This document shows, in pieces, positions 6,642-44,372 of a stretch of 64,000 nucleotides of DNA. Each line of letters starts with the position of its first letter. Within the stretch, counting starts at the first letter, position 1. Source of the stretch: Bacilli bacterium (lineage in GTDB: Bacteria > Bacillota_I > Bacilli_A > RFN20 > CAG-826). Location of the stretch: positions 90,630 through 154,629 of the forward strand of contig JAKSVB010000002.1 of NCBI GenBank assembly GCA_024408335.1, written 5' to 3'. Made by a program: the position numbers and the translations under genes. Below the pieces are notes generated by a model. The model had not been told where the DNA came from and made no database searches. It saw only the letters and a program-made list of their open reading frames with translations.

Positions 6642-8459
6642 ATGGCTTATCCAAAGGAACTTGTAGATGAGATATTGTCTAAGGCTGACATAGTCCAAGT
6701 CATCAAGGCATATATCCCTGTAAACAAAAAAGGTCGTAACTATATGGCGATCTGTCCTTTCCACGATGACAAACATCCTAGCCTTTCCATCTCACCAGAG
6801 CGTCAAATCTTCAAATGCTTCGTATGTGGAACAGCCGGTAACGTATTCACTTTCGTTTCGAAATACGAAAATATTTCGTATCAAGAAGCCATTAAGAAAG
6901 TCGCTGACATTATCGGTTTCCACGATGAGCGTTTAGAAAAGGAAGCGTTCGTTCCCAAGAAAGACTCGACACTAGAGCCTTTATACAAGTGTATTGATGA
7001 CCTTCAAGGGCTTTACCAATATGGCTTAAACATCCCAGAAGGCAAAGAAGCCAAGGATTATTTAGGGGCAAGAAACATCGATCAAGAACAAGTCAAAAAA
7101 TACAAGATTGGCTATGCTCTTATGGATGGAAGAAAAACCGTCGAATACCTTATTGGCAAAGGCCATTCACTCAAATCGATTCAGGATATCGGTATCGCTT
7201 TAGCTAGCGCGAACGCCAAAGACGGCAATGCTGGAAGACTTATCTTCCCGCTTTGCGATCCTAATGGACAAGTCGTTGGTTTTAGCGCAAGAAAGCTAAA
7301 GAAAGAACAAGATCCTAAATACGTCAACTCACCAGAAACGCCTATCTTCCACAAAGGACGCATTCTCTATAACTACCATAACGTTAAGGGAAGCGCTCGC
7401 CATGCTGGATACGTCTATGTCCTTGAAGGGTTCATGGATGTTATGGCGTTAGATAAAGCAGGAATCCCTAACGCAGTCGCTTTAATGGGAACAGCCCTCT
7501 CGAATGAACAAATCAAGCTCCTTAGAAGACTTGGCTGCGAACTTAGACTTTGTCTAGACGGCGATGCCGCAGGTCAAATGGGTATGATGAAAATGATCAC
7601 CCAACTCCATGACTCAGGCATACCGTTTAGGCTTGTAAGTAACCCTAATGACTTAAGGGACCCTGATGATATTCTTCAGGAAAGCGGTCCAGAGGCCTTA
7701 AAAGAGGCGATGTCACATCTAGTTGACTCGATGGATTTTCAAATCAATTACTATCTTAACGTCAAAAAGCTAGATACCGCCGAGGAAAAGAAAAGAGTCC
7801 TTCTCTATTTCGTTAAGTTCCTTCAATCGATGGAACCTGGCATCGAACGTGAGAACTATATCGCTAAACTTGCCTCTGCAACCGGTTATAGAGCGGAAGC
7901 CATTAGAAGCCAACTTAGCGTTAAGAAACAAACAAAAGAAGAATATGAAGAAATCGAATTCGCCGTCGACCAAGAAAACTTCGGTCGTCTTCACCCAGAG
8001 AAAACGTACCTCAAGCGTCTTGTGATGGCGGAAAAAGAAGTGCTTTATTACATGCTCAAAGAGATGGGGGCAATCAAGTACTTCCAAGACGATGTTGACC
8101 ATTTCTACACCCCAATCTATCAATCGTTAGCCAATTACATCATTGACTACCAAGCAACAAGAAACGGCAACATTGCCATTCCGCTTCTGATTAACGATAT
8201 CGAACAAGCGGAAGATAACGAAACGGATGCCCTCGTTTCCCAGATCACAAAGATCTATAACGATGAACTTCATCCTCCGTATGACGACGCTCACATGAAA
8301 GAAGTCGTCCAGACAATCAAAGAGGAAAAAGAGAAGATATTCATCAAGGAACAGGCTGAAAAGAGCATTAACAAAGAGGGAATAACCGACAAAGAAAGAG
8401 GCGAGATACTTAAAAAGTATGCCGCCAGCAGAAAAAAGATTCTCGATAGCAGATCGTAA
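6642..8459 (+). CDS. dnaG: DNA primase
   Basis: Zinc ribbon CPFHDDKHPS...CFVCG, a TOPRIM region and a C-terminal helicase-interaction domain. Lies upstream of the sigma-70 gene. Confidence 0.95.
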   Translation: MAYPKELVDEILSKADIVQVIKAYIPVNKKGRNYMAICPFHDDKHPSLSISPERQIFKCFVCGTAGNVFTFVSKYENISYQEAIKKVADIIGFHDERLEKEAFVPKKDSTLEPLYKCIDDLQGLYQYGLNIPEGKEAKDYLGARNIDQEQVKKYKIGYALMDGRKTVEYLIGKGHSLKSIQDIGIALASANAKDGNAGRLIFPLCDPNGQVVGFSARKLKKEQDPKYVNSPETPIFHKGRILYNYHNVKGSARHAGYVYVLEGFMDVMALDKAGIPNAVALMGTALSNEQIKLLRRLGCELRLCLDGDAAGQMGMMKMITQLHDSGIPFRLVSNPNDLRDPDDILQESGPEALKEAMSHLVDSMDFQINYYLNVKKLDTAEEKKRVLLYFVKFLQSMEPGIERENYIAKLASATGYRAEAIRSQLSVKKQTKEEYEEIEFAVDQENFGRLHPEKTYLKRLVMAEKEVLYYMLKEMGAIKYFQDDVDHFYTPIYQSLANYIIDYQATRNGNIAIPLLINDIEQAEDNETDALVSQITKIYNDELHPPYDDAHMKEVVQTIKEEKEKIFIKEQAEKSINKEGITDKERGEILKKYAASRKKILDSRS

Positions 8460-24029: not shown

Positions 24030-24323
24030 ATGTTAGCTCCAAAAAATCGTGCTTATCTCAAAGGATTAGCAAATACATTAAAACCATCACTCAACATCGG
24101 TAAGGGCGATATCAATGAAGGCGTCCTTGACGTCCTCGACAAAGCCTTAGAGGCCCATGAACTCGCAAAAGTCCGTCTTCTTGACACCGTTGGCTCAACC
24201 GCTGACGAAGTCGTCGAAGAACTTTGCAAAGGCGTAGGCGCTGAGTTTGTAGGTAAATGTGGTCACATCATCACCCTTTACCGCCCAAGCAAGAAGAATA
24301 AGAGAATTACCCTCCCTAGATAA
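24030..24323 (+). CDS. yhbY: CRM-domain RNA-binding protein YhbY/YqeI
   Basis: LKGLANTLKPSLNIGKGDI...KVRLL CRS1/YhbY signature, 97 aa. Confidence 0.85.
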   Translation: MLAPKNRAYLKGLANTLKPSLNIGKGDINEGVLDVLDKALEAHELAKVRLLDTVGSTADEVVEELCKGVGAEFVGKCGHIITLYRPSKKNKRITLPR

Positions 24324-25447
24324 TGAAAAAGCTTATAGTCTACGGTGGAAGCTTCGATCCGCCTCATAACGGTCATTTGGCAATCGCTAAAGCGGCAGCC
24401 AAGTCTTTTGGTTGCTCTTTATGCTTAATGCCTGCTAAACACGCTAGATGGAAAGACAATGAAGCATCGACCGAAGATAGACTTAAGATGGCATCTATTG
24501 CCGCGGATATCTTAAACAAAGATATGCCTGGCACCTTTTTCGTCTCTGATTATGAAATTAGACAAGAGGAAGAAGGGGAAACTCATTCAATCGATGCCGT
24601 TAGACACTTCGCGAAAGAATATGAGAAACTCTATTTTATTATCGGTGCTGACCAAGTTGCCCTCTTCGACAAATGGTATAAGCCTGATGAGATAGCATCG
24701 CTTGCTCAAATCGTCTACGTTTCTAGACCTGGTAATGAGATAAGTGACTCTAATGTCGCTAAATACCATATGATTAAGCTAGAAATGGAAGAATACCCTG
24801 TTTCTAGCACCCAAATAAGAAACCTTGAGTCGATTGATTACCCTGATGAGATTCGTCATTACGTCGAGGTGAAGAGACTCTACTTATTAAGTAAGTTTGG
24901 CAACTACCTTAAGCCAAAGAGATTAGAGCATTCCATATCTGTCGCTAACGTGGCTTTAAAGATTGCTATAAATAATCCTGAAGCAGCATTGCCGATCGAA
25001 GCGTATAGAGCAGGTCTTCTCCACGATTTAGGCAAATACGTTAATGATGAGGCTGCTATAGCAATGATTAAGGAGAATTTTGATGAGAAATACACCAAAT
25101 ATCCTTCTTGGGCGTATCACCAGTGGACTGGTGCGGTCATAGCAAAAGACGTATTTGGCGAAAAGAACCAAAAAGTCTTAGACGCAATTACTTATCACTG
25201 CACAGGCCGTCCCAAAATGGGGCCTTTAGAGCAAATCATTTATAGTTCAGATAAGATTGATCCATTGCGTGGATACGATTCGTCTGGATTCATCAAATCT
25301 TGCATAAATGATTACCATCAAGGTTTCATTGATGTCCTTGCCGCGAATAGAATCTATTTAGCGGAGAAAGATCTTCATCAAGATGATTCGAAAGATCTCA
25401 AAGACATGTGTTACGAATACTATTTAGACAAAGGAGAAAAAGAATAA
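24323..25447 (+). CDS. nadD: fusion: nicotinate-nucleotide adenylyltransferase NadD (N-terminal) + HD-domain YqeK bis(5'-nucleosyl)-tetraphosphatase (C-terminal)
   Basis: N-terminal GGSFDPPHNGHL (H/TxGH nucleotidyltransferase). The C-terminal half has HD-domain residues LEHS...LLHDLGKY...YHC in the YqeK pattern. One ORF of 374 aa. Confidence 0.8.
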   Translation: MKKLIVYGGSFDPPHNGHLAIAKAAAKSFGCSLCLMPAKHARWKDNEASTEDRLKMASIAADILNKDMPGTFFVSDYEIRQEEEGETHSIDAVRHFAKEYEKLYFIIGADQVALFDKWYKPDEIASLAQIVYVSRPGNEISDSNVAKYHMIKLEMEEYPVSSTQIRNLESIDYPDEIRHYVEVKRLYLLSKFGNYLKPKRLEHSISVANVALKIAINNPEAALPIEAYRAGLLHDLGKYVNDEAAIAMIKENFDEKYTKYPSWAYHQWTGAVIAKDVFGEKNQKVLDAITYHCTGRPKMGPLEQIIYSSDKIDPLRGYDSSGFIKSCINDYHQGFIDVLAANRIYLAEKDLHQDDSKDLKDMCYEYYLDKGEKE

Positions 25448-25776
25448 TGGAATATCCAAAATTAATACAAGAAACAATTGCCTTATTAGAAGAAAAGAAA
25501 GGCGAAGAGATTGTCGCGATTGACGTTAGAGAAAGAACTCCGTTCACAGATTTCTATATTCTTGTCACCGCGCCAAACATGAGAGCAGTAGGTGCTTACG
25601 CTGAATCTCTTGAAGAGTTCTTTGAAGGCAAAGTTGAAGACCTTAGAAAGATCGAAGGACAACCTGAATCCGGTTGGGTTCTAGTTGACGGAGGCGAAGT
25701 CGTCGTTCATATCTTCACCGAACAAAAGAGAAGAGAACTTAGCCTTGAGGACTTGTTCTTGAAGAGCTTAGCCTAA
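25447..25776 (+). CDS. rsfS: ribosome silencing factor RsfS (Iojap/YqeL)
   Basis: MEYPKLIQETIALLEEKKGEEIVAIDV...DFYILVTAPN...GWVLVDGGEVVVHIF. The start is taken at MEYPK; the track ORF starts at 25408, inside nadD. Confidence 0.85.
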   Translation: MEYPKLIQETIALLEEKKGEEIVAIDVRERTPFTDFYILVTAPNMRAVGAYAESLEEFFEGKVEDLRKIEGQPESGWVLVDGGEVVVHIFTEQKRRELSLEDLFLKSLA

Positions 25777-25798
25777 TTGATTCTCATAAATAAACAAT

Positions 25799-25828
25799 GG
25801 GTTCTAGATAAGGAACCCTTTTCTTTTT
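25799..25828 (+). terminator. rho-independent terminator after rsfS
   Basis: GGGTTCTAGATAAGGAACCC hairpin plus TTTTCTTTTT. Confidence 0.75.
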
Positions 25829-25960
25829 GCCTATCTATAACTGGCGGAAAGTGATAGCAGTGGACCACGAAATTCAAACTCAAAAACAAGAGCAAAAATA
25901 ACAGTCAATTAGTAGATTTGGTTTCTTTGGATTTTTGAGCGAACCTAAGAAATCAATATA

Positions 25961-25988
25961 ACTACGCATAATAGCCCTTATGTTAACC
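25961..25988. other. dif: candidate dif site (Xer chromosome-dimer resolution site): ACTACGCATAA-TAGCCC-TTATGTTAACC
   Basis: The right arm matches the XerD-arm consensus TTATGTTAAAT (E. coli) and TTATGTAAACT (B. subtilis) at 9/11. The left arm carries CGCATAA, as in GGTGCGCATAA. The central region is 6 bp. It lies in an AT-rich intergenic region about 145 bp 3' of a xer gene and exactly at the gene-orientation switch. Confidence 0.55.
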
Positions 25989-26131
25989 AAACAATAAAGA
26001 AATAGCGACAAATAGCCGTTTTCTAAATATTGTCTATTATTGTGTTCTTACTTTATCAACTGAAAATACTAGGTTATCAACACTATTTAGAAACTACTAA
26101 ATAACTACTAATCTATAATTGATTCCTGAAC

Positions 26132-27013
26132 CTATTTTCTAGAACTAAACTTGTCGTAAGCCGCCATGATTCTGTTCGTAGATAAATGTGTGTAGATTTG
26201 GGTTGTTGAGATTTTGCTATGTCCTAACATTTCCTGGACCGCTCTAAGATCTGCGCCGTTGTTTAATAAGTGAGTCGCAAAACAATGTCTTAATGTGTGA
26301 GGCGATATTGCATCATCGACTCCAGCGATTTCCGCGTATCTCTTTATCTGCTTAAAGAAATAAATTCTTGAGATTGGTTTGCCTTCTCTATTTAGGAATA
26401 TGTAATTGGATGAATGACCTTTGTTCTTTCTTCTTGTTCCATCAATATACTTTCTTAAATAATCCATTGAGAAACTGGAAACCGGAACGCTGCGTTGCTT
26501 ATTGCCTTTGCCGTATACTGTTATGACTCCTGATTCAAAATCAATGTTCTTAAACTGCAATGTGATGAGTTCAGAAACACGTAATCCGGTCGCATACATG
26601 ATTTCGAGCATCACTCTATCTCTTTGGCCGGTTTCCTTTTTCATATCTGGCGCCTCAAGAAGCAAATCGATGTCTTCAGTCGATAAAACAAATGGCAGTT
26701 TTTTGTCGCCTTTTGGTTTTTGGAGATTTGGAATATCGACATCGATGATTCCTTCGCCGACTAAAAACTGAAAATAGTTCTTTAGACAGCTATATCGCCT
26801 AAGGATTGTTGAGGCCGCTTTAAGATCTTCGCTCTCTTTTTGAATGAAGCCAGATATTTGTTCGACCATTAAGTCATCCGTTGTCTTGATGTCCTCAAAA
26901 ACCGAGAAAAAGAGTTTAAGATCTTCTCTATAGTTTTGGATTGTTATCCTCGAAACGCCTTTTTCAACTTGAAGATGCTGAAAATAAAGGGAAACAGAAT
27001 CATTTATTTCCAT
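26132..27013 (-). CDS. xerD: tyrosine site-specific recombinase, XerC/XerD-like
   Basis: N-terminal SAM-like core-binding domain. Catalytic R...HxxR...Y region is LRHCFATHLL...GHSKISTTQIYTH. 293 aa. Confidence 0.8.
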   Translation of the reverse strand: MEINDSVSLYFQHLQVEKGVSRITIQNYREDLKLFFSVFEDIKTTDDLMVEQISGFIQKESEDLKAASTILRRYSCLKNYFQFLVGEGIIDVDIPNLQKPKGDKKLPFVLSTEDIDLLLEAPDMKKETGQRDRVMLEIMYATGLRVSELITLQFKNIDFESGVITVYGKGNKQRSVPVSSFSMDYLRKYIDGTRRKNKGHSSNYIFLNREGKPISRIYFFKQIKRYAEIAGVDDAISPHTLRHCFATHLLNNGADLRAVQEMLGHSKISTTQIYTHLSTNRIMAAYDKFSSRK

Positions 27014-28187
27014 TTTTCTTTACCTCACTAGCCATAACCAAGAGTTTCTTGTTGGCTTTTCTGTTTAATGAATTGACGAGTAGCTTTGTTTCGTCTTCTT
27101 TTTCGTATGATTCATAGTTCCATAAAGACATCTGGACGTTCTTTTCTTTTAAAGGGACTAAGTTACCTGCTGTAACGCCGATAAGTCGAATTACGATACC
27201 TAAAAACGTGTTGTTATAGATTCTATTTGCTACTTTGATTATATCTTCCTCTTCAAATATAGGTTCATCCAAAGAAACGACCTTTGAGAATGACTTAAAG
27301 TGTTCATCTTTGATGTTCACGGTTATCGAACGAGCCTTTTTCTTTTCTCTAGCGATTCCTCTAGCGACTCTTGCACACAAATTATTGAGCATTTCGCGAA
27401 TTTCATCAGGATCATTCGTGTCAAATAGGAAGGTTTGGCTATGCCCTAAAGACTTTTGGTCAGGATATTCGGTAATGACTACGTCATCGCCGTTTCCTCG
27501 AATGTTATTTAGATACCAATCGTATGACTTCCCGAAATGTTTTCTCATTTCGTCTTCTTTTGTTTCGAGAATATTAACGAAATCGCCAATTGTCTTAACG
27601 CCTAATGTATCTAGGTAGGCTGCGCTTTTCTTTCCAACTCCAAAGAAATCGCCGATTTTCAAAGGATAGAGCATCTTTTTGATGTCTCTACGCCTAATTA
27701 CCGTGATGCCCATAGGTTTTTTCATATCGGAGCCCATCTTCGCTAAAAACTTTGTTGGAGCAACGCCTATGGAGCACTTGAGACCGAGCTCTTTATATAG
27801 ACCTTCCTGAAGTTCCTTGAGGCATTTTATAGGATCTTTCTCTTTTTGAAGGTATTTGGTCATATCGACAAACCCTTCATCGATGGATGCTTCCTCGATA
27901 AGCGATGAATAGTTTCTAAGATAACCGAAAAACGATCTAGAAAGGAGTTCGTAGTATTCAAAATCTGGAAATAAGTAAATTCCTTGAGGGCAAAGTCTTC
28001 TTGCTTCGCCAATAGGCATAGCCGAATGCACGCCGAAAGCTCTAGCTTCATAAGAACACGTTGATACAACGCCTCTAAGGCCTAAACCGCCTACAATGAC
28101 AGGCTTTCCTTGATATTCAGGGTTCTTGATTTGTTCTGCGGTCGCATAGAACGCATTCAAATCAATGTGCATGATGATTTTCGACAT
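27000..28187 (-). CDS. dinB: DNA polymerase IV (Y-family)
   Basis: N-terminal IMHIDLNAFYATAEQ...KPVIVGG, matching the UmuC/DinB palm. About 395 aa. Confidence 0.85.
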   Translation of the reverse strand: MSKIIMHIDLNAFYATAEQIKNPEYQGKPVIVGGLGLRGVVSTCSYEARAFGVHSAMPIGEARRLCPQGIYLFPDFEYYELLSRSFFGYLRNYSSLIEEASIDEGFVDMTKYLQKEKDPIKCLKELQEGLYKELGLKCSIGVAPTKFLAKMGSDMKKPMGITVIRRRDIKKMLYPLKIGDFFGVGKKSAAYLDTLGVKTIGDFVNILETKEDEMRKHFGKSYDWYLNNIRGNGDDVVITEYPDQKSLGHSQTFLFDTNDPDEIREMLNNLCARVARGIAREKKKARSITVNIKDEHFKSFSKVVSLDEPIFEEEDIIKVANRIYNNTFLGIVIRLIGVTAGNLVPLKEKNVQMSLWNYESYEKEDETKLLVNSLNRKANKKLLVMASEVKKNGNK

Positions 28188-39964: not shown

Positions 39965-41512
39965 TTAGAAAGTCTTTTCACAAATAATGTCTAAAGATTT
40001 GCGACCTTTGTACTCATTTATTCTAAATGTCGCAACGAAATCGACCTTGGATTCACCGACAAAACTGTCTTGGCTGATCGAGAAAGAAAAGAGCCTCGAA
40101 TCGGTTGATATTTTAGTTGAAAGATATTTGCCTTCTTTGATGTAAGTGAAGGTTCTTGGATCAAGATTATTTAGTAGAAATTTAGGAGTTTCCCAACAGA
40201 AGCCAAAAGGCGCAAAAGTCTCGATGATTCGGTAACTTTGCATTGTGCATTCACCTAAAGAAAGAGGAATTCCCGTCTTCTCTTTTGGAGAGAGTTTGTG
40301 CTTAACTGCGGCATAGAGATAATCCTTCTTGAAAGCCGCAAAATCCTCCACTCTGATTGACACTCCTCCAGCGCATGGATGGCCACCTTTTGAGAGTAAA
40401 TTTACCTTCGTTCCTTCAAGTGCTTTAAGGACATCAAAACCCTCTTCGCTACGCATCGAACCAACTAAAATATTTTCGTCGTTTTCTTTTTTCGAAAAGA
40501 CAATTACAGGCTTGTGATAGTTAGAAAGGAGTCTTGAAGCGAGTAAACCGTTAAGTCCTTCAGGGATTTCCGCGTTAACGATAATGGCAGGTTCGTCCTC
40601 ATTAATCACGAGGTTTTCAAAGGATTCTTTGGTTATTTCTTTCCTTCTTTCATATACCTCATTTATATAGTTTGCGATAAGCGTTTTGTCACTTTCTGGG
40701 TTACCGAAATACGCCAAAAGCCTATTTGGTTCAGTGCCTTTTTCAAGTCTTCCGATGGAGTTAAGCTTAGGGTTAATTCCCATTTGGAAAGTCGATGCAT
40801 CGAACTCTTTCGCGTCACTAAGAAGAGCAAATTCTTCATATCTATTCTTGTTAACGATGTCTAACATCAAACGAACGATTTCGCGGTTGTATTTCCTTAG
40901 CGGCATCATGTCGCTAATTGTGGAAATTGCGCCTAAGGAAAGAAGATAATCATCCACTCTATTTAATAAGGCGACACTAAAAACGAAAGAAAGATATCCA
41001 GCACTAATTGGTACATCTCCATAAGAAACGGTTTCTGGGTGAATTACGATATCCGTTTCCGGCTTAACTAAGTCAAATTCGTGGTGATCAAGAATGATGA
41101 CTTCCACTCCTAGGTTCTTAGCTTCTAGCAATGCCTCATGGGCTGTAACGCCATTATCGCAGGTGAAAATGATTTTAAATCCTTTGGCTGCGATTTTCTT
41201 TACATTAGCGACTGTTAAGCCATAACCATCGAGATATCTTGAAGGTATGTATCCAGCGCAATCAAGACCGAATTCTTTGAATGCACGAAGAAGAATCGAA
41301 GCGCTAGCAATGCCATCGACATCGTAGTCGCCATAGATAAGAATCCTCTCTTCGGTATCACGCGCCTTCTTAAGCCTTTCTATCGCTTTCTTGACCTCTA
41401 TTTGGTCATCGATCAAAGGGATATTACTAAAAGAAGGAGGAAGTATGAGTCCTTCATACTCCTCCTTCGTAATGCCGTAGTATGTAAGTAATCTATCGAG
41501 AAGGCTTTCCAT
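39965..41512 (-). CDS. recJ: single-stranded-DNA-specific exonuclease RecJ-like DHH/DHHA1 protein
   Basis: DHH motifs ILIYGDYDVDGIAS, ILDHHE and the DHHA1 GGGH. 515 aa. Located secDF-recJ-relA as in Bacillus. Confidence 0.8.
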   Translation of the reverse strand: MESLLDRLLTYYGITKEEYEGLILPPSFSNIPLIDDQIEVKKAIERLKKARDTEERILIYGDYDVDGIASASILLRAFKEFGLDCAGYIPSRYLDGYGLTVANVKKIAAKGFKIIFTCDNGVTAHEALLEAKNLGVEVIILDHHEFDLVKPETDIVIHPETVSYGDVPISAGYLSFVFSVALLNRVDDYLLSLGAISTISDMMPLRKYNREIVRLMLDIVNKNRYEEFALLSDAKEFDASTFQMGINPKLNSIGRLEKGTEPNRLLAYFGNPESDKTLIANYINEVYERRKEITKESFENLVINEDEPAIIVNAEIPEGLNGLLASRLLSNYHKPVIVFSKKENDENILVGSMRSEEGFDVLKALEGTKVNLLSKGGHPCAGGVSIRVEDFAAFKKDYLYAAVKHKLSPKEKTGIPLSLGECTMQSYRIIETFAPFGFCWETPKFLLNNLDPRTFTYIKEGKYLSTKISTDSRLFSFSISQDSFVGESKVDFVATFRINEYKGRKSLDIICEKTF

Positions 41513-44256
41513 TAGTCGTTGATACCAATGAAGATAGCTTCTTCAGGTTCGCTGCTCTTACGTTGGTTGGCTTTGTTAGCGGCTTTTCTAGCTTCTTGGG
41601 CTTTCTTGTAGCTTCCAGAAATTGAATTGCCTGCTGCTTTGAACCATTTACCAAAGGTAACAGCGAGTGGGACAAGAACAAAGAGAGCAAGTGCTGTAGC
41701 GATTGCTAAGCCAATGATTGCTCCAACGAACATGATCCAGTATTGTCTTGGACCAAATGCGACGAACGCTAAGAGGAATGCGCATAACATTCCAGCGAAG
41801 ATAAGGATTTCCCCTGCTTCTTCGCCAACGCCTTTTTCTAAGCAAGCGTTGCGGAAGGCGAGAGCGCTCTTATCGCGTTCACGTGAATCCTTAACGATTT
41901 CGTTTCCTCTATTAAGGAGATAGATAGCGAAATAAAGGAATGCAAGCGAAGCAACGACTGCTGCGATTGAAGCGATTGGAGTGACTGGTAATCTTGTTAA
42001 AGCGAAGAAACCAACGGTAACGACGCTTGTGCCAAGACCAAGGAGTCCAGTGACGAAGCCACGGGCAAGGCCGAATCTGAACATCATGTAGACGGCTGCT
42101 GCAACGAAGCCAAGGCCGAGGCCAAGATAAACAGTGCCAAGGTTTGGAGTGCCTGCTTGATAACGGACTGTAGCGCTTGTTGCGTAGATTGATGTGCCAC
42201 CGAATTCTTTAGCGGCTTCTTCGATAGCTAAGTTAAGGTTATTGAAGGTTGTGCCTGCAACTTTGAATGTTTCTTTTTCGTTATTGTCAGCGAAATAGAC
42301 GCTAAGTGGGATTTCGAAGTTATAGACATTGTAGGTTGTTTCGTCGTCGTTAAGATAGACGCTTGATTGTTCAAGGACGATCTTATCGGCGCTTGTTAAG
42401 TCTGCTAAGGTGCCATCTTTGTATTCGACCGTTGAAAGGAAGTCCATAGCTTGATCTTTCTTATAAAGAAGCTTGGTGCCTTGTGATTCTGTGTCGACAC
42501 GGTATTCGACTAAGAGTGATGTGGTGTTGTCGTATGCACCGCTGTAGTTATAGACATTACCAAGGGCATTGGTGACAATGATGCCACCAAGAGCAGCAAC
42601 AAGAAGAGCGATAGCGCCGATTAAGAATGGGCGTTTTGCTTTCTTGAAGTCTTTGTTAGCGAACTTACCGAAGTATGTTTGCTTTTCGTCTTTAAGAGAA
42701 TTTGGAATGACGCTGGTGTTGATTCCATAGAGTTTGCCATAGCTCTTTTCTGTGGAAGCGTCATTAGCAAGGAGTGCGCCTTGGATACGGAGAAGGATAA
42801 GGTTAAGGACTAAGCCGACTGCGGTTGTAAGGATGAGAGCTAAGCCTAAGTTACCGATTGTTGAGTGGACAAAGGCATAGACGAAGATACCGACAAGGAT
42901 TGAAACGACAGAGATGTCGATGGTTGGCCATAAAGCCTTCTTCATGCCTTCTTGGTGAGCTTTCTTGATTGTACGTCCTTCGTAGATTTGTTGTTTGAAT
43001 TTGTGGAAATAGTACATGCCACCGAATGAAGTGACCATTGCGCCAAGAGCGAAGCCGACGAGAGCGCCGATACCGAATTGTGCGCTGAAGTAAGCAAACA
43101 TAAGGATTGCGCCTTCGGTTGCAACTGCTGCGTTAGCTAAGATTGAGACAGCGCCGATTCTGTAGAATAAGCAAAGGGCTACGATGCCAAGAGCAAGAGA
43201 AACAAGAGCTGCGATTGCTGTTGGGCCGAAGTTGATGGCTAAGTGCCAATCGCCTGCTGTGACGAGTGGATCAACGCTTGGTGAGACGACGGTAGCGTGT
43301 GAGAATGAGACGTCATAGTCATATTCGCTAGCGTTAAGAACGTCGCGGTAGAATTTAGCAGCTTTGAATGCAGCGTTTGCTTTGCTTGGGTCGTAGCTGC
43401 CATCTTTAATAGCTGCGCTTGAAGGAATGAGCTGGATCTTCTTGTAGTTGTTGTCATCGTCAGCTGGGTCAACCCACCAGGAGTTGGCTGCTTCTTGACC
43501 GAAGAGAAGACGTGAACCCATGTTGACGTTGAAGTCTTCGTGGTTTGTATCTGAAGCAATAGCATAGCTATCATTTTCTTGTTTGTGATCCCAGAGACAG
43601 AAGAGAGTGCTCTTTGCTGCGACTGTTTCATTGCCGTCTTCATCGGTTTCAGCATCGTTAGTGTTGTCTTTGCAGTATTTGATGAGTTCGTTTAATGGGC
43701 CGTTTTCACCTTGGAAGGTTTCCTTGACTGGGATAGTAACGACTGGGATTGAGTTAACGTATTCGATTTGAGCGTTTGTTCCTTCTTCGAAGAGGCCGTT
43801 ATCAGCGAATTCAGGGCTGTTTGGTGCTTCAGCCATGATGTCTTCGTCACGTGATCCTGCTTCAACGGTGACGTGTTGGCCACTGTAAGCAAGATAGGTT
43901 TGAAGGTAGCTATATTCAACATCGTCACTGCCTTGGGTACGGACAGAGATTTTGACGGTGTGATAACCTTCTTTGATGACACTGGCATTGATGTCCCAGA
44001 ATTCGAGACGTTTTTCCATTTCTTTTGCGACTGCGTCAACTGCACCGTAGTTACGGGTTGTTGCATCTGCACCAATGTAACTTTCTGGGTTGACACCTTC
44101 GTATGTGGAATCTTTGACGGAAATGTTGAAATACAAATCCTTACCGCTGCCATAGCTGACATCGGTGTCCATTTTACTAAGCGATGAAGTGATGGTGACA
44201 CCAACTCCTAAAAGGAGGGAAGCACCAAGGAATAAATAAGCTAATCTTCTACGCAT
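41512..44256 (-). CDS. secDF: protein translocase subunit SecDF (fused SecD-SecF)
   Basis: Two RND-like 6-TM modules, each after a large extracytoplasmic domain. Start is chosen at MRRRLAYLFLG (44256) with GGAGGA RBS 7 nt upstream; the track ORF starts at 44304. Confidence 0.8.
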   Translation of the reverse strand: MRRRLAYLFLGASLLLGVGVTITSSLSKMDTDVSYGSGKDLYFNISVKDSTYEGVNPESYIGADATTRNYGAVDAVAKEMEKRLEFWDINASVIKEGYHTVKISVRTQGSDDVEYSYLQTYLAYSGQHVTVEAGSRDEDIMAEAPNSPEFADNGLFEEGTNAQIEYVNSIPVVTIPVKETFQGENGPLNELIKYCKDNTNDAETDEDGNETVAAKSTLFCLWDHKQENDSYAIASDTNHEDFNVNMGSRLLFGQEAANSWWVDPADDDNNYKKIQLIPSSAAIKDGSYDPSKANAAFKAAKFYRDVLNASEYDYDVSFSHATVVSPSVDPLVTAGDWHLAINFGPTAIAALVSLALGIVALCLFYRIGAVSILANAAVATEGAILMFAYFSAQFGIGALVGFALGAMVTSFGGMYYFHKFKQQIYEGRTIKKAHQEGMKKALWPTIDISVVSILVGIFVYAFVHSTIGNLGLALILTTAVGLVLNLILLRIQGALLANDASTEKSYGKLYGINTSVIPNSLKDEKQTYFGKFANKDFKKAKRPFLIGAIALLVAALGGIIVTNALGNVYNYSGAYDNTTSLLVEYRVDTESQGTKLLYKKDQAMDFLSTVEYKDGTLADLTSADKIVLEQSSVYLNDDETTYNVYNFEIPLSVYFADNNEKETFKVAGTTFNNLNLAIEEAAKEFGGTSIYATSATVRYQAGTPNLGTVYLGLGLGFVAAAVYMMFRFGLARGFVTGLLGLGTSVVTVGFFALTRLPVTPIASIAAVVASLAFLYFAIYLLNRGNEIVKDSRERDKSALAFRNACLEKGVGEEAGEILIFAGMLCAFLLAFVAFGPRQYWIMFVGAIIGLAIATALALFVLVPLAVTFGKWFKAAGNSISGSYKKAQEARKAANKANQRKSSEPEEAIFIGIND

Positions 44257-44372
44257 AAATATCCTCCAAGCAATTTGCCCTGCACAAAAAGAATGTGCTG
44301 GCAAGCCCTACAAGTTTACAACATACGCGAGCACGCGTACAAGAACAAAACATAGTTTTGTATTAAAAATCG

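What the first reader, a model, noticed from the sequence alone, without database searches (positions are those of the whole stretch)
25961..25988. dif-like 28-mer adjacent to a single xer gene
ACTACGCATAA-TAGCCC-TTATGTTAACC has the 11-6-11 architecture of dif. The XerD-type arm matches consensus at 9/11 and the other arm carries the conserved inner positions CGCATAA. It lies in a 355-bp AT-rich intergenic region about 145 bp downstream of a 293-aa XerC/D-like recombinase gene, an arrangement otherwise known for single-recombinase systems (XerS/difSL, XerH/difH). I estimate about 0.1 chance matches per 64 kb for this combined pattern, and far fewer inside this particular gap. If real, this lineage may use a single-Xer system with its site next to the gene, or the region could be an IMEX-type integration hot spot.
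Basis: partly seen in the sequence, partly recalled or inferred. Interest (0 to 1): 0.65.

Follow-up and report, generated by a model that had tools for sequence, protein, structure and literature searches.

The report
Chromosomal dif site beside xerD gene
The 28-base motif is a real, conserved chromosome-dimer resolution site (dif) lying where genes converge at the probable replication terminus of an uncultured gut Bacilli/"Mollicutes" bacterium, next to an ordinary XerD-type recombinase gene, so it is a normal system in an unstudied lineage rather than a new kind.

Summary
ACTACGCATAA-TAGCCC-TTATGTTAACC lies at 25961-25988, 143 bp past the stop of a 293-aa tyrosine recombinase gene (26132-27013, minus strand), in a 355-bp intergenic gap with 31% GC. 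It is unique in the window.

It is a genuine dif site.
- The same 11-6-11 site is found at the same position in about 25 related genomes (Xer identity 34-100%, GC 24-58%).
- Both arms are nearly invariant, while the spacer and flanks vary.
- It always lies between two converging conserved gene blocks: parE-parC...nadD-rsfS and nusB-xseAB-dxs-dinB-xer.
- Its core is the canonical XerCD dif core of Gamma- and Betaproteobacteria. Its XerD arm equals that of the predicted Acholeplasma laidlawii dif.

The recombinase is a canonical XerD type, not XerS or XerH.

The tight adjacency is secondary. Relatives carry one to several ordinary genes (0.45-5.8 kb) between xer and dif, and this sublineage lost them.

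The single-Xer idea could not be tested, because only 64 kb is available. The conserved canonical XerC-type arm argues weakly against it. There is no sign of an IMEX (a mobile element that integrates at dif). Verdict: a new member of a known kind, of low to moderate interest.

The parts
25961..25988 (+). dif site, 28 bp, 11-6-11
   Evidence: Conserved at the orthologous position in about 25 related loci.
25961..25971 (+). XerC-type arm ACTACGCATAA (lineage consensus ACTTCGCATAA)
   Evidence: Majority-base fraction 0.96 across 10 sites found through xer homology. Identical to the XerC arm of many proteobacterial dif sites.
25972..25977 (+). Central region TAGCCC, where strand exchange takes place
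   Evidence: Variable among relatives (TAGCCT, TGTCCG, TGCCCA, TGTAGA, TATATA and others), as expected for a dif spacer.
25978..25988 (+). XerD-type arm TTATGTTAACC
   Evidence: The first 9 bases are almost invariant in relatives. The arm is identical to the XerD arm of the predicted Acholeplasma laidlawii dif (Kono 2011 supplement) and matches the E. coli arm at 9 of 11 positions.
26132..27013 (-). xerD-like tyrosine recombinase gene, 293 aa, transcribed toward dif
   Evidence: NCBIfam XerD 321.6 bits (cutoff 329.6); PRK00283 subfamily 308.5 (cutoff 279); XerC 285.6; XerS 120 (cutoff 267). The best solved structure is E. coli XerD 1A0P, 187 bits. The catalytic Arg, the GKGNK Lys, HxxR, His and Tyr are invariant in 13 orthologues.
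27000..28187 (-). dinB (DNA polymerase IV); its stop overlaps the xer start by 14 nt. Part of the conserved block upstream of xer.
   Evidence: dinB-xer is conserved in all syntenic relatives.
25408..25776 (+). rsfS, last gene of the converging left-hand block. dif lies 0.1-0.8 kb beyond it (or beyond nadD) in all relatives.
25799..25828 (+). Intrinsic-terminator-like hairpin and T-run after rsfS
25777..26131 (.). 355-bp AT-rich intergenic gap between the two converging gene blocks. Gene orientation and AT skew change sign here.

Best explanation
This is the chromosomal dif site of an uncultured, reduced-genome Bacilli bacterium. The source protein is MCQ2799495.1, from a MAG labelled 'Bacilli bacterium'; relatives are labelled 'Mollicutes bacterium' or 'Candidatus Enteromonas'.

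Shown: a conserved 28-bp 11-6-11 site. It lies exactly where two long, conserved blocks of housekeeping genes converge, and next to a catalytically intact XerD-type recombinase gene.

Inferred mechanism, from the established XerCD/dif/FtsK pathway:
1. After an odd number of crossovers, the two dif copies of a chromosome dimer are brought together at the septum by FtsK.
2. One recombinase binds each arm. The encoded XerD-type protein binds TTATGTTAA. A partner, most likely a XerC encoded elsewhere in the genome, binds ACTWCGCATAA.
3. Two pairs of strand exchanges across the 6-bp spacer resolve the dimer.

The close spacing of xer and dif here results from loss of the genes (deoB-like and others) that separate them in relatives. 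That loss occurred inside a terminus-spanning syntenic block conserved in this clade.
For: - Site present and unique.
- Orthologous sites were found starting from xer homologues, with no use of the motif. 9 of 11 syntenic loci carry a site matching 17-20 of 22 arm positions, always downstream of xer and in the same orientation. The 2 exceptions (L012, L016) end 81 bp and about 2 kb after xer. By contrast, 71 non-syntenic xer loci (500 kb) give a best score of 18 or less, with median 14.
- Conservation is confined to the arms. Majority-base fractions are 0.96 and 0.87 for the arms, 0.75 for the spacer and 0.57 for the flanks.
- Search from the motif: the pattern retrieved 16 Bacilli/Firmicutes MAGs, one match per stretch. 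10 of them have a xer homologue in the same 8-kb chunk (9 at 42-75% identity, plus L196 at 34%), in the same orientation. All 14 with recognisable flanking genes have the rsfS/nadD block, the xer-dinB block, or both, beside the site.
- The same pattern retrieved about 100 proteobacterial dif sites, including mid-chromosome positions in three complete genomes: 1.82 of 3.56 Mb, 2.08 of 4.20 Mb and 3.98 of 7.43 Mb.
- Terminus-like context: 19 of 23 genes on the left are on + and 23 of 24 on the right are on -. AT skew flips at 26 kb. Intergenic GC skew is +0.035 on the left and -0.065 on the right. In 13 of 18 relatives the GC skew is higher on the rsfS side than on the xer side, which is the terminus-type direction.
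- Recombinase type.
- ruvA and ruvB are in the window, so crossover-generating recombination is expected.
- The predicted A. laidlawii dif has the identical XerD arm and lies 0.04 degrees from that genome's GC-skew shift point (PMC3025954 supplement).
Against: - No whole genome was available, so genome-wide uniqueness of the site, the position of the global skew extremum, and the presence of XerC and FtsK are all unverified.
- Total GC skew in the window has a cumulative minimum at the site, which is the origin-type shape. This is explained by a C3>G3 codon preference in every gene combined with the gene-strand bias, but it means skew alone does not prove a terminus here.
- The recombinase scores 8 bits below the XerD equivalog cutoff.
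- No binding or cleavage data exist.
Confidence: 0.85

Rival explanations
1. Single-recombinase system. The clade has lost XerC, and the encoded XerD-type protein alone binds both arms of a canonical-looking dif. The conserved xer-dif linkage would then reflect a gene-plus-site module, as in XerS/difSL and XerH/difH.
For: - There is no second xer in 64 kb.
- xer and dif lie within 0.15-5.8 kb of each other, in fixed relative orientation, across Xer identities of 34-100%.
- These are reduced genomes.
- The protein falls just below the XerD equivalog cutoff and also passes the archaeal XerA model cutoff (227.6 against 220).
Against: - The linkage is embedded in a larger conserved syntenic block on both sides, so it needs no special selection.
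- Unrelated genes have been inserted or retained between xer and dif in most relatives, and dif is anchored to the rsfS side, not to xer.
- The site keeps a distinct, almost invariant XerC-type arm (CG against AA at the discriminating outer positions), identical to that of XerC-containing Proteobacteria. It has not drifted toward symmetry.
- The protein is canonical in length and type, unlike XerS and XerH.
- The one Tenericutes genome analysed in the XerCD-based survey of Kono et al., A. laidlawii, has the same XerD arm.
Confidence: 0.12
2. IMEX or dif-module integration hot spot. The site would be mainly an attachment site where mobile elements enter and leave, which would explain the variable gene content next to it.
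For: - Gene content between xer and dif varies among relatives.
- Many IMG/VR viral contigs carry the same dif core.
- At least 10 independent assemblies of one relative break 259 bp after xer.
Against: - There is no second or degenerate dif copy in the window (next best 15 of 22) or in relatives' loci.
- The gap here is 355 bp with no ORF.
- The intervening genes in relatives are a deoB-like metalloenzyme, ABC permease components, Crp-type regulators and spo0A. None is an integrase, replication gene or phage gene.
- None of the viral contigs shows this lineage's synteny.
Confidence: 0.03

Closest known systems
Canonical XerCD/dif of Gamma- and Betaproteobacteria (E. coli dif GGTGCGCATAATGTATATTATGTTAAAT; many species have ACTWCGCATAATGTATATTATGTTAAAT)
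   Same: 28 bp with 11-6-11 layout. The XerC-arm sequence ACTACGCATAA occurs verbatim in several Gammaproteobacteria, and the XerD arm TTATGTTAA is shared. The recombinase's best solved-structure match is E. coli XerD.
   Different: The spacer is TAGCCC instead of TGTATA, and the last two bases are CC instead of AT. In the proteobacterial loci retrieved, no Xer orthologue lies near dif. Here xerD is 143 bp away.
Firmicute CodV(XerC)/RipX(XerD)/dif of Bacillus subtilis
   Same: Same class (Bacilli) and the same kind of housekeeping neighbourhood. In relatives, xerD is followed by a deoB-like gene. From memory, B. subtilis ripX is followed by drm (deoB); I could not verify this with the tools (one search found nothing).
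   Different: From memory, the B. subtilis dif (ACTTCCTAGAATATATATTATGTAAACT) has a different XerC arm and is hundreds of kb from ripX.
Predicted dif of Acholeplasma laidlawii PG-8A (Kono et al. 2011, PMC3025954, Table S1)
   Same: The XerD arm TTATGTTAACC is identical. It is 28 bp, from a wall-less relative of Bacilli, and lies at the GC-skew shift point.
   Different: The XerC arm is AGTGCCTATAA, against ACTACGCATAA here. Linkage to xer in that genome was not examined.
XerS/difSL (streptococci, lactococci) and XerH/difH (Helicobacter, Campylobacter)
   Same: The recombinase gene is genetically linked to its site (PMC5357621).
   Different: Those recombinases are about 355 aa and belong to separate families. 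Here XerS scores 120 bits against a cutoff of 267, and XerH 97 bits against 187 for XerD. difSL is 31 bp with an 11-bp spacer. Here both the protein and the site are canonical.

Membership tests
Canonical (XerCD-type) dif site | 28 bp: two 11-bp arms with inner inverted repeat ATAA/TTAT around a 6-bp spacer | tested here: met
Canonical (XerCD-type) dif site | XerD arm close to TTATGTTAAAT, and a distinct XerC arm ending in CGCATAA or similar | tested here: met
   9 of 11 and 7 of 11 against E. coli. The 19-position pattern built on this core (18 fixed bases plus one W) retrieves about 100 proteobacterial dif sites.
Canonical (XerCD-type) dif site | Conserved at the orthologous locus in related genomes, with arms constrained and spacer and flanks free | tested here: met
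Canonical (XerCD-type) dif site | Single occurrence per chromosome | tested here: inconclusive
   Unique in 64 kb and one match per retrieved stretch in relatives.
Canonical (XerCD-type) dif site | Located in the replication terminus region, at the skew shift point opposite oriC | tested here: inconclusive
   The switch in gene orientation, the AT-skew flip, the intergenic GC skew and the GC skew in 13 of 18 relatives are all terminus-like. Total GC skew in the window is dominated by codon usage, and oriC cannot be located.
Canonical (XerCD-type) dif site | Bound and recombined by Xer recombinase(s), dependent on FtsK | not testable with these tools
   Needs biochemistry or genetics.
XerD (NCBIfam TIGR02225 equivalog) | Score at or above the equivalog cutoff, and higher than for XerC | tested here: inconclusive
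   321.6 bits against a cutoff of 329.6, so just below. XerD scores 36 bits above XerC. The protein passes the PRK00283 subfamily cutoff, 308.5 against 279.
XerD (NCBIfam TIGR02225 equivalog) | Tyrosine-recombinase catalytic residues intact (Arg, Lys, His-x-x-Arg, His, Tyr) | tested here: met
   R145, the GKGNK motif (K169/K172), H239, R242, H265 and Y274 are invariant in 13 orthologues and align with E. coli XerD.
XerD (NCBIfam TIGR02225 equivalog) | Works with a XerC paralogue encoded in the same genome | not testable with these tools
   Only 64 kb is visible, with no second xer in it.
Single-recombinase Xer systems (XerS/difSL, XerH/difH) | Recombinase belongs to the XerS or XerH family (about 355 aa) | tested here: not met
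   293 aa. XerS model 120 bits against a cutoff of 267. XerH structure 97 bits against 187 for XerD.
Single-recombinase Xer systems (XerS/difSL, XerH/difH) | Atypical site (difSL is 31 bp with an 11-bp spacer; difH) | tested here: not met
   Canonical 28 bp with a 6-bp spacer.
Single-recombinase Xer systems (XerS/difSL, XerH/difH) | Site genetically linked to the recombinase gene | tested here: met
   143 bp here and 0.45-5.8 kb in relatives, in fixed orientation. However, the linkage sits within a larger syntenic block.
Single-recombinase Xer systems (XerS/difSL, XerH/difH) | Only one Xer recombinase in the genome | not testable with these tools
IMEX (mobile element integrated at dif) | Element flanked by dif and a second, often degenerate, dif-like site, and carrying mobile-element genes | tested here: not met
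   The next-best site in the window scores 15 of 22. The gap is 355 bp with no ORF. The intervening genes in relatives are ordinary chromosomal genes.

The most novel reading that the evidence does not exclude
This whole clade of uncultured, reduced-genome Bacilli may have lost XerC. It would then resolve chromosome dimers with a single canonical XerD-type recombinase acting on both arms of an unchanged canonical dif, with gene and site kept together at the terminus. That would be a fourth, independently evolved single-recombinase Xer system, and the first to retain both a canonical protein and a canonical site.
Probability: 0.12. Interest if true: 0.55.

Novelty: new member of a known kind. 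Interest (0 to 1): 0.25.

Why it matters
The site gives a precise terminus marker for a large clade of uncultured gut Bacilli and "Mollicutes" MAGs. The marker is the site itself plus its flanking synteny: parE-parC...rsfS | dif | ...xerD-dinB-dxs. It can be used to orient and scaffold those MAGs.

It also shows that total GC skew is misleading for this genome, because codon-driven C3>G3 inverts it.

Conserved xerD-dif proximity in a canonical system is mildly unusual. It makes the clade a reasonable place to ask whether gene-site linkage precedes loss of the second recombinase. Otherwise this is textbook biology.

Tried and rejected
- Second xer in the window: tblastn found none. This says nothing about the rest of the genome.
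- Exact look-up of the Xer protein: it returned only a 9-kb Logan contig, not the 161-kb MAG contig. The genome could therefore not be walked.
- Counting Xer paralogues in relatives: not possible. The collection scans return at most 8-20 kb around a match and are capped.
- Literature on Xer in Mollicutes, RF39 or Acholeplasma: nothing specific was found beyond Kono 2011 and the 2017 review. The ripX-drm synteny of B. subtilis could not be confirmed from the library.
- Total GC skew as a terminus test: rejected for this genome. GC3 skew is negative on the coding strand of every gene, whichever strand it lies on.
- KOPS-like polarity: GAAGAAG occurs 55 times toward dif and 6 times away. This is confounded with coding strand, so it was not used as evidence. 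GAGAAGGG occurs 0 and 2 times.
- Promoter, terminator and repeat scans of the gap: only the rsfS terminator was found, and nothing suggests accessory sites.
- tRNA and Rfam scans of the window: empty.
- Viral-contig scan for the motif: it returned many dif-carrying contigs whose sites mostly have the proteobacterial-type XerD-arm ending. None has this lineage's flanking genes.

Full report
**1. The observation**

Window 25961-25988 (+) reads ACTACGCATAA TAGCCC TTATGTTAACC. It lies in the 355-bp gap (30.7% GC, window 42.3%) between two ORFs. On the left is rsfS (25408-25776, +). On the right, 143 bp from the site, is the stop of a 293-aa ORF on the minus strand (26132-27013).

The 28-mer is unique in the window even with 3 mismatches allowed. 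The 16 specified core bases CGCATAA-N6-TTATGTTAA occur once. Base composition predicts 8.5e-5 such matches per 64 kb.

**2. The neighbouring gene**

The ORF is a XerC/D-family tyrosine recombinase.

| Model or structure | Score (bits) | Cutoff (bits) |
|---|---|---|
| NCBIfam XerD equivalog | 321.6 | 329.6 |
| PRK00283 subfamily | 308.5 | 279 |
| NCBIfam XerC | 285.6 | not passed |
| NCBIfam XerS | 120 | 267 |
| E. coli XerD structure 1A0P | 187 | - |
| XerA structure | 138 | - |
| XerH structure | 97 | - |

The catalytic Arg, the Lys motif GKGNK, His-x-x-Arg, His and Tyr are invariant in 13 orthologues. It is therefore a canonical XerD-type protein, not a member of the XerS or XerH families.

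Its start overlaps the stop of dinB by 14 nt. It is the last gene of a minus-strand block: tkt-asp23-nusB-xseA-xseB-dxs-dinB-xer. No second xer is present in the 64 kb.

**3. The organism and the region**

The exact protein is MCQ2799495.1, labelled "MAG: tyrosine recombinase [Bacilli bacterium]", on a 161-kb contig. Relatives are labelled "Mollicutes bacterium", "Bacilli bacterium" or "Candidatus Enteromonas".

The window carries only housekeeping genes:
- ybeY, era, recO, glyS, dnaG, sigA, efp, plsY, parE, parC, yqeH, nadD-yqeK, rsfS;
- then, past the site, xerD, dinB, dxs, xseAB, nusB, tkt, aspS, hisS, relA, recJ, ruvAB, obg, rpmA, rplU, valS, lon, tig.

On the left of the site, 19 of 23 genes are on the + strand. 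On the right, 23 of 24 are on the - strand. The two blocks therefore converge on the site, as leading-strand-biased genes do at a firmicute terminus.

**4. Conservation, starting from the gene**

Loci were fetched only through Xer homology: by exact protein look-ups and by one metagenome scan.

- In 9 of 11 loci that share the dinB-xer synteny, the best match to the window 28-mer scores 17-20 of 22 arm positions. It is always downstream of xer and always in the same orientation.
- The two exceptions end 81 bp and about 2 kb after xer.
- In 71 non-syntenic xer loci (500 kb), the best scores are 12-18, with median 14.

Across the 10 sites found this way, the majority-base fractions are:

| Segment | Majority-base fraction |
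|---|---|
| XerC-type arm | 0.96 |
| XerD-type arm | 0.87 |
| 6-bp spacer | 0.75 |
| 20-bp flanks | 0.57 |

This is the footprint expected of an 11-6-11 recombination site.

**5. Conservation, starting from the site**

The pattern CTWCGCATAA-N6-TTATGTTAA was scanned against one genome per species.

About 100 hits are dif sites of Gamma- and Betaproteobacteria, typically ACTTCGCATAATGTATATTATGTTAAAT. Three complete chromosomes are among them, with the site near mid-chromosome: 1.82 of 3.56 Mb, 2.08 of 4.20 Mb and 3.98 of 7.43 Mb. The window's arms are therefore those of the canonical XerCD dif.

Sixteen hits are Bacilli or Firmicutes MAGs.
- Ten carry a xer homologue within the same 8-kb chunk: 9 at 42-75% identity, plus L196 at 34%. 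The relative orientation matches the window.
- In five of the other six, the chunk or contig ends within about 1.5 kb on the side where xer is expected. In L185, no xer lies within the 2.5 kb available.
- All 14 with recognisable flanking genes have nadD/rsfS, xer-dinB, or both, beside the site.

No Xer orthologue lies near the proteobacterial sites.

Kono et al. 2011 predicted AGTGCCTATAATGTATATTATGTTAACC for Acholeplasma laidlawii, 0.04 degrees from that genome's skew shift point. Its XerD arm is identical to the one here (PMC3025954 supplement).

**6. Anatomy of the locus across the clade**

The conserved arrangement is: parE-parC-HAD-yqeH-yhbY-nadD-rsfS -> dif <- (variable genes)-xer-dinB-dxs-xseBA-nusB.

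dif stays 0.1-0.8 kb from rsfS or nadD. The xer-dif distance varies from 0.15 to 5.8 kb. The space between them is filled by a co-oriented deoB-like metalloenzyme gene, ABC-transporter components, Crp-type regulators, or spo0A in one distant relative. Only the window's own sublineage (Xer at least 75% identical: L003, L156) has lost these genes.

The 143-bp adjacency is therefore secondary. The linkage of xer and dif is part of a larger terminus-spanning syntenic block.

**7. Skew**

Total GC skew in the window shows a cumulative minimum at 25-31 kb, and AT skew flips from + to - at 26 kb.

Every gene, on either strand, has C3>G3. Total GC skew here therefore only mirrors gene orientation and would look origin-like. 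Two other measures give the terminus-type direction:
- Intergenic DNA gives +0.035 on the left and -0.065 on the right. The sample is small, about 2.5-3 kb on each side.
- In 13 of 18 relatives, notably the low-GC ones, GC skew is higher on the rsfS side of dif than on the xer side, which is the classical terminus direction.

I treat terminus location as well supported but not proven, because oriC and the whole genome are unavailable.

**8. Mechanism**

Shown: a constrained canonical dif, an intact XerD-type recombinase gene beside it, ruvAB in the window, and a converging, terminus-like context.

Inferred from the established XerCD/dif/FtsK pathway (reviewed in PMC5357621):
1. FtsK aligns the two dif copies of a dimer at the septum.
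2. XerD binds the TTATGTTAA arm, and a partner binds ACTWCGCATAA.
3. Sequential strand exchanges across the spacer resolve the dimer.

**9. One Xer or two?**

This could not be tested.

For a single Xer:
- the reduced genomes;
- the sub-cutoff XerD score.

Against:
- The linkage is explained by block synteny, and it tolerates inserted genes.
- dif is anchored to the other flank, not to xer.
- Both protein and site are canonical.
- The XerC-type arm is at least as conserved as the XerD arm. It is identical to that of XerC-bearing Proteobacteria and has not become symmetric with the XerD arm.

I put the single-Xer reading at about 0.12.

**10. IMEX**

There is no second dif-like copy: the next best is 15 of 22 in the window, and none was found in relatives' loci. 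The gap has no ORF, and relatives carry no mobile-element genes there.

Many IMG/VR contigs carry the same dif core. This is consistent with the known use of dif by integrating phages, but none shows this lineage's flanks.

**11. Verdict**

This is a correctly spotted, genuine dif site with an ordinary XerD-type recombinase: a new member of a known kind in an uncultured clade. The single-recombinase and IMEX interpretations are not supported by what could be tested. Interest is low to moderate (0.25).

Noticed in passing
window 1-64000 (per-gene values): Every gene has C>G at third codon positions (GC3 skew -0.02 to -0.75 on its own coding strand), whichever strand it lies on. Combined with the strong gene-strand bias, this makes the leading strand C-rich. 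Total GC skew therefore shows a cumulative minimum at the probable terminus, which is the origin-type shape. Low-GC relatives show the classical sign.
   Followed up: partly
window 27000-27013: The xer start codon overlaps the dinB stop by 14 nt. The dinB-xer pair and the upstream nusB-xseA-xseB-dxs block are conserved in all syntenic relatives, which suggests co-transcription of Pol IV, ExoVII and XerD.
   Followed up: partly
L005, L006, L007 (locus coordinates 6885-7144): In a relative with 65% identical Xer, at least 10 independent Logan assemblies all end 259 bp after the xer stop, inside a partial ORF. This is a consistent assembly break, possibly due to a repeat or to strain variation just past xer. 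No dif was reached.
   Followed up: no
window 41512-44304 (-): A 930-aa ORF has no Pfam match at E<=1e-8. It lies in the most GC-rich, most skewed part of the window (GC3 skew -0.75), between recJ and ruvB.
   Followed up: no
window 1-64000: No tRNA gene and no Rfam family reach the gathering score, despite four aminoacyl-tRNA synthetase genes (glyS-like, aspS, hisS, valS) and the rplU-ysxB-rpmA operon. No T-box or L21-leader elements were detected.
   Followed up: no
window 24323-25447 (+): A 374-aa fusion of NadD (nicotinate-nucleotide adenylyltransferase) with the YqeK HD-domain phosphatase. It matches the PRK07152-type model below cutoff and is conserved next to rsfS in relatives.
   Followed up: no
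window, both sides of 25975: The heptamer GAAGAAG (the lactococcal KOPS-like motif) points toward the dif site 55 times and away from it 6 times. The count is confounded with coding-strand Glu codons, so it is only suggestive.
   Followed up: partly
L110 (3409-3993) and L125 (3601-4224): In two proteobacterial genomes (Halomonas sp. KAO, Ca. Oceanisphaera merdipullorum), a distant tyrosine recombinase (26-28% identical to the window Xer) lies within about 1 kb of the canonical dif. These may be IMEX or island integrases.
   Followed up: no
L211, L231, L245 and other IMG/VR contigs (L209-L328): More than 120 viral contigs, many only 4-10 kb, carry the same dif core. Several low-GC contigs share GCTTCGCATAATTTATCTTATGTTAAGT or ACTTCGCATAATTTATCTTATGTTAAGT. 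These are probably small phages or IMEX elements that use host Xer.
   Followed up: no
L079 3087-3114: The DNA encoding the conserved Xer C-terminal motif TTQIYTH in an unrelated xer gene (ACTACTCAGATTTATACTCATGTTAACC) matches the window dif at 18 of 22 arm positions. This is a coincidental source of false dif-like hits inside xer genes.
   Followed up: no
L061 7408-8238: A distant syntenic relative (43% identical Xer, 26% GC) has spo0A between xer and dif. The dinB-xer...dif arrangement therefore extends to a genome that carries the sporulation regulator gene spo0A.
   Followed up: no
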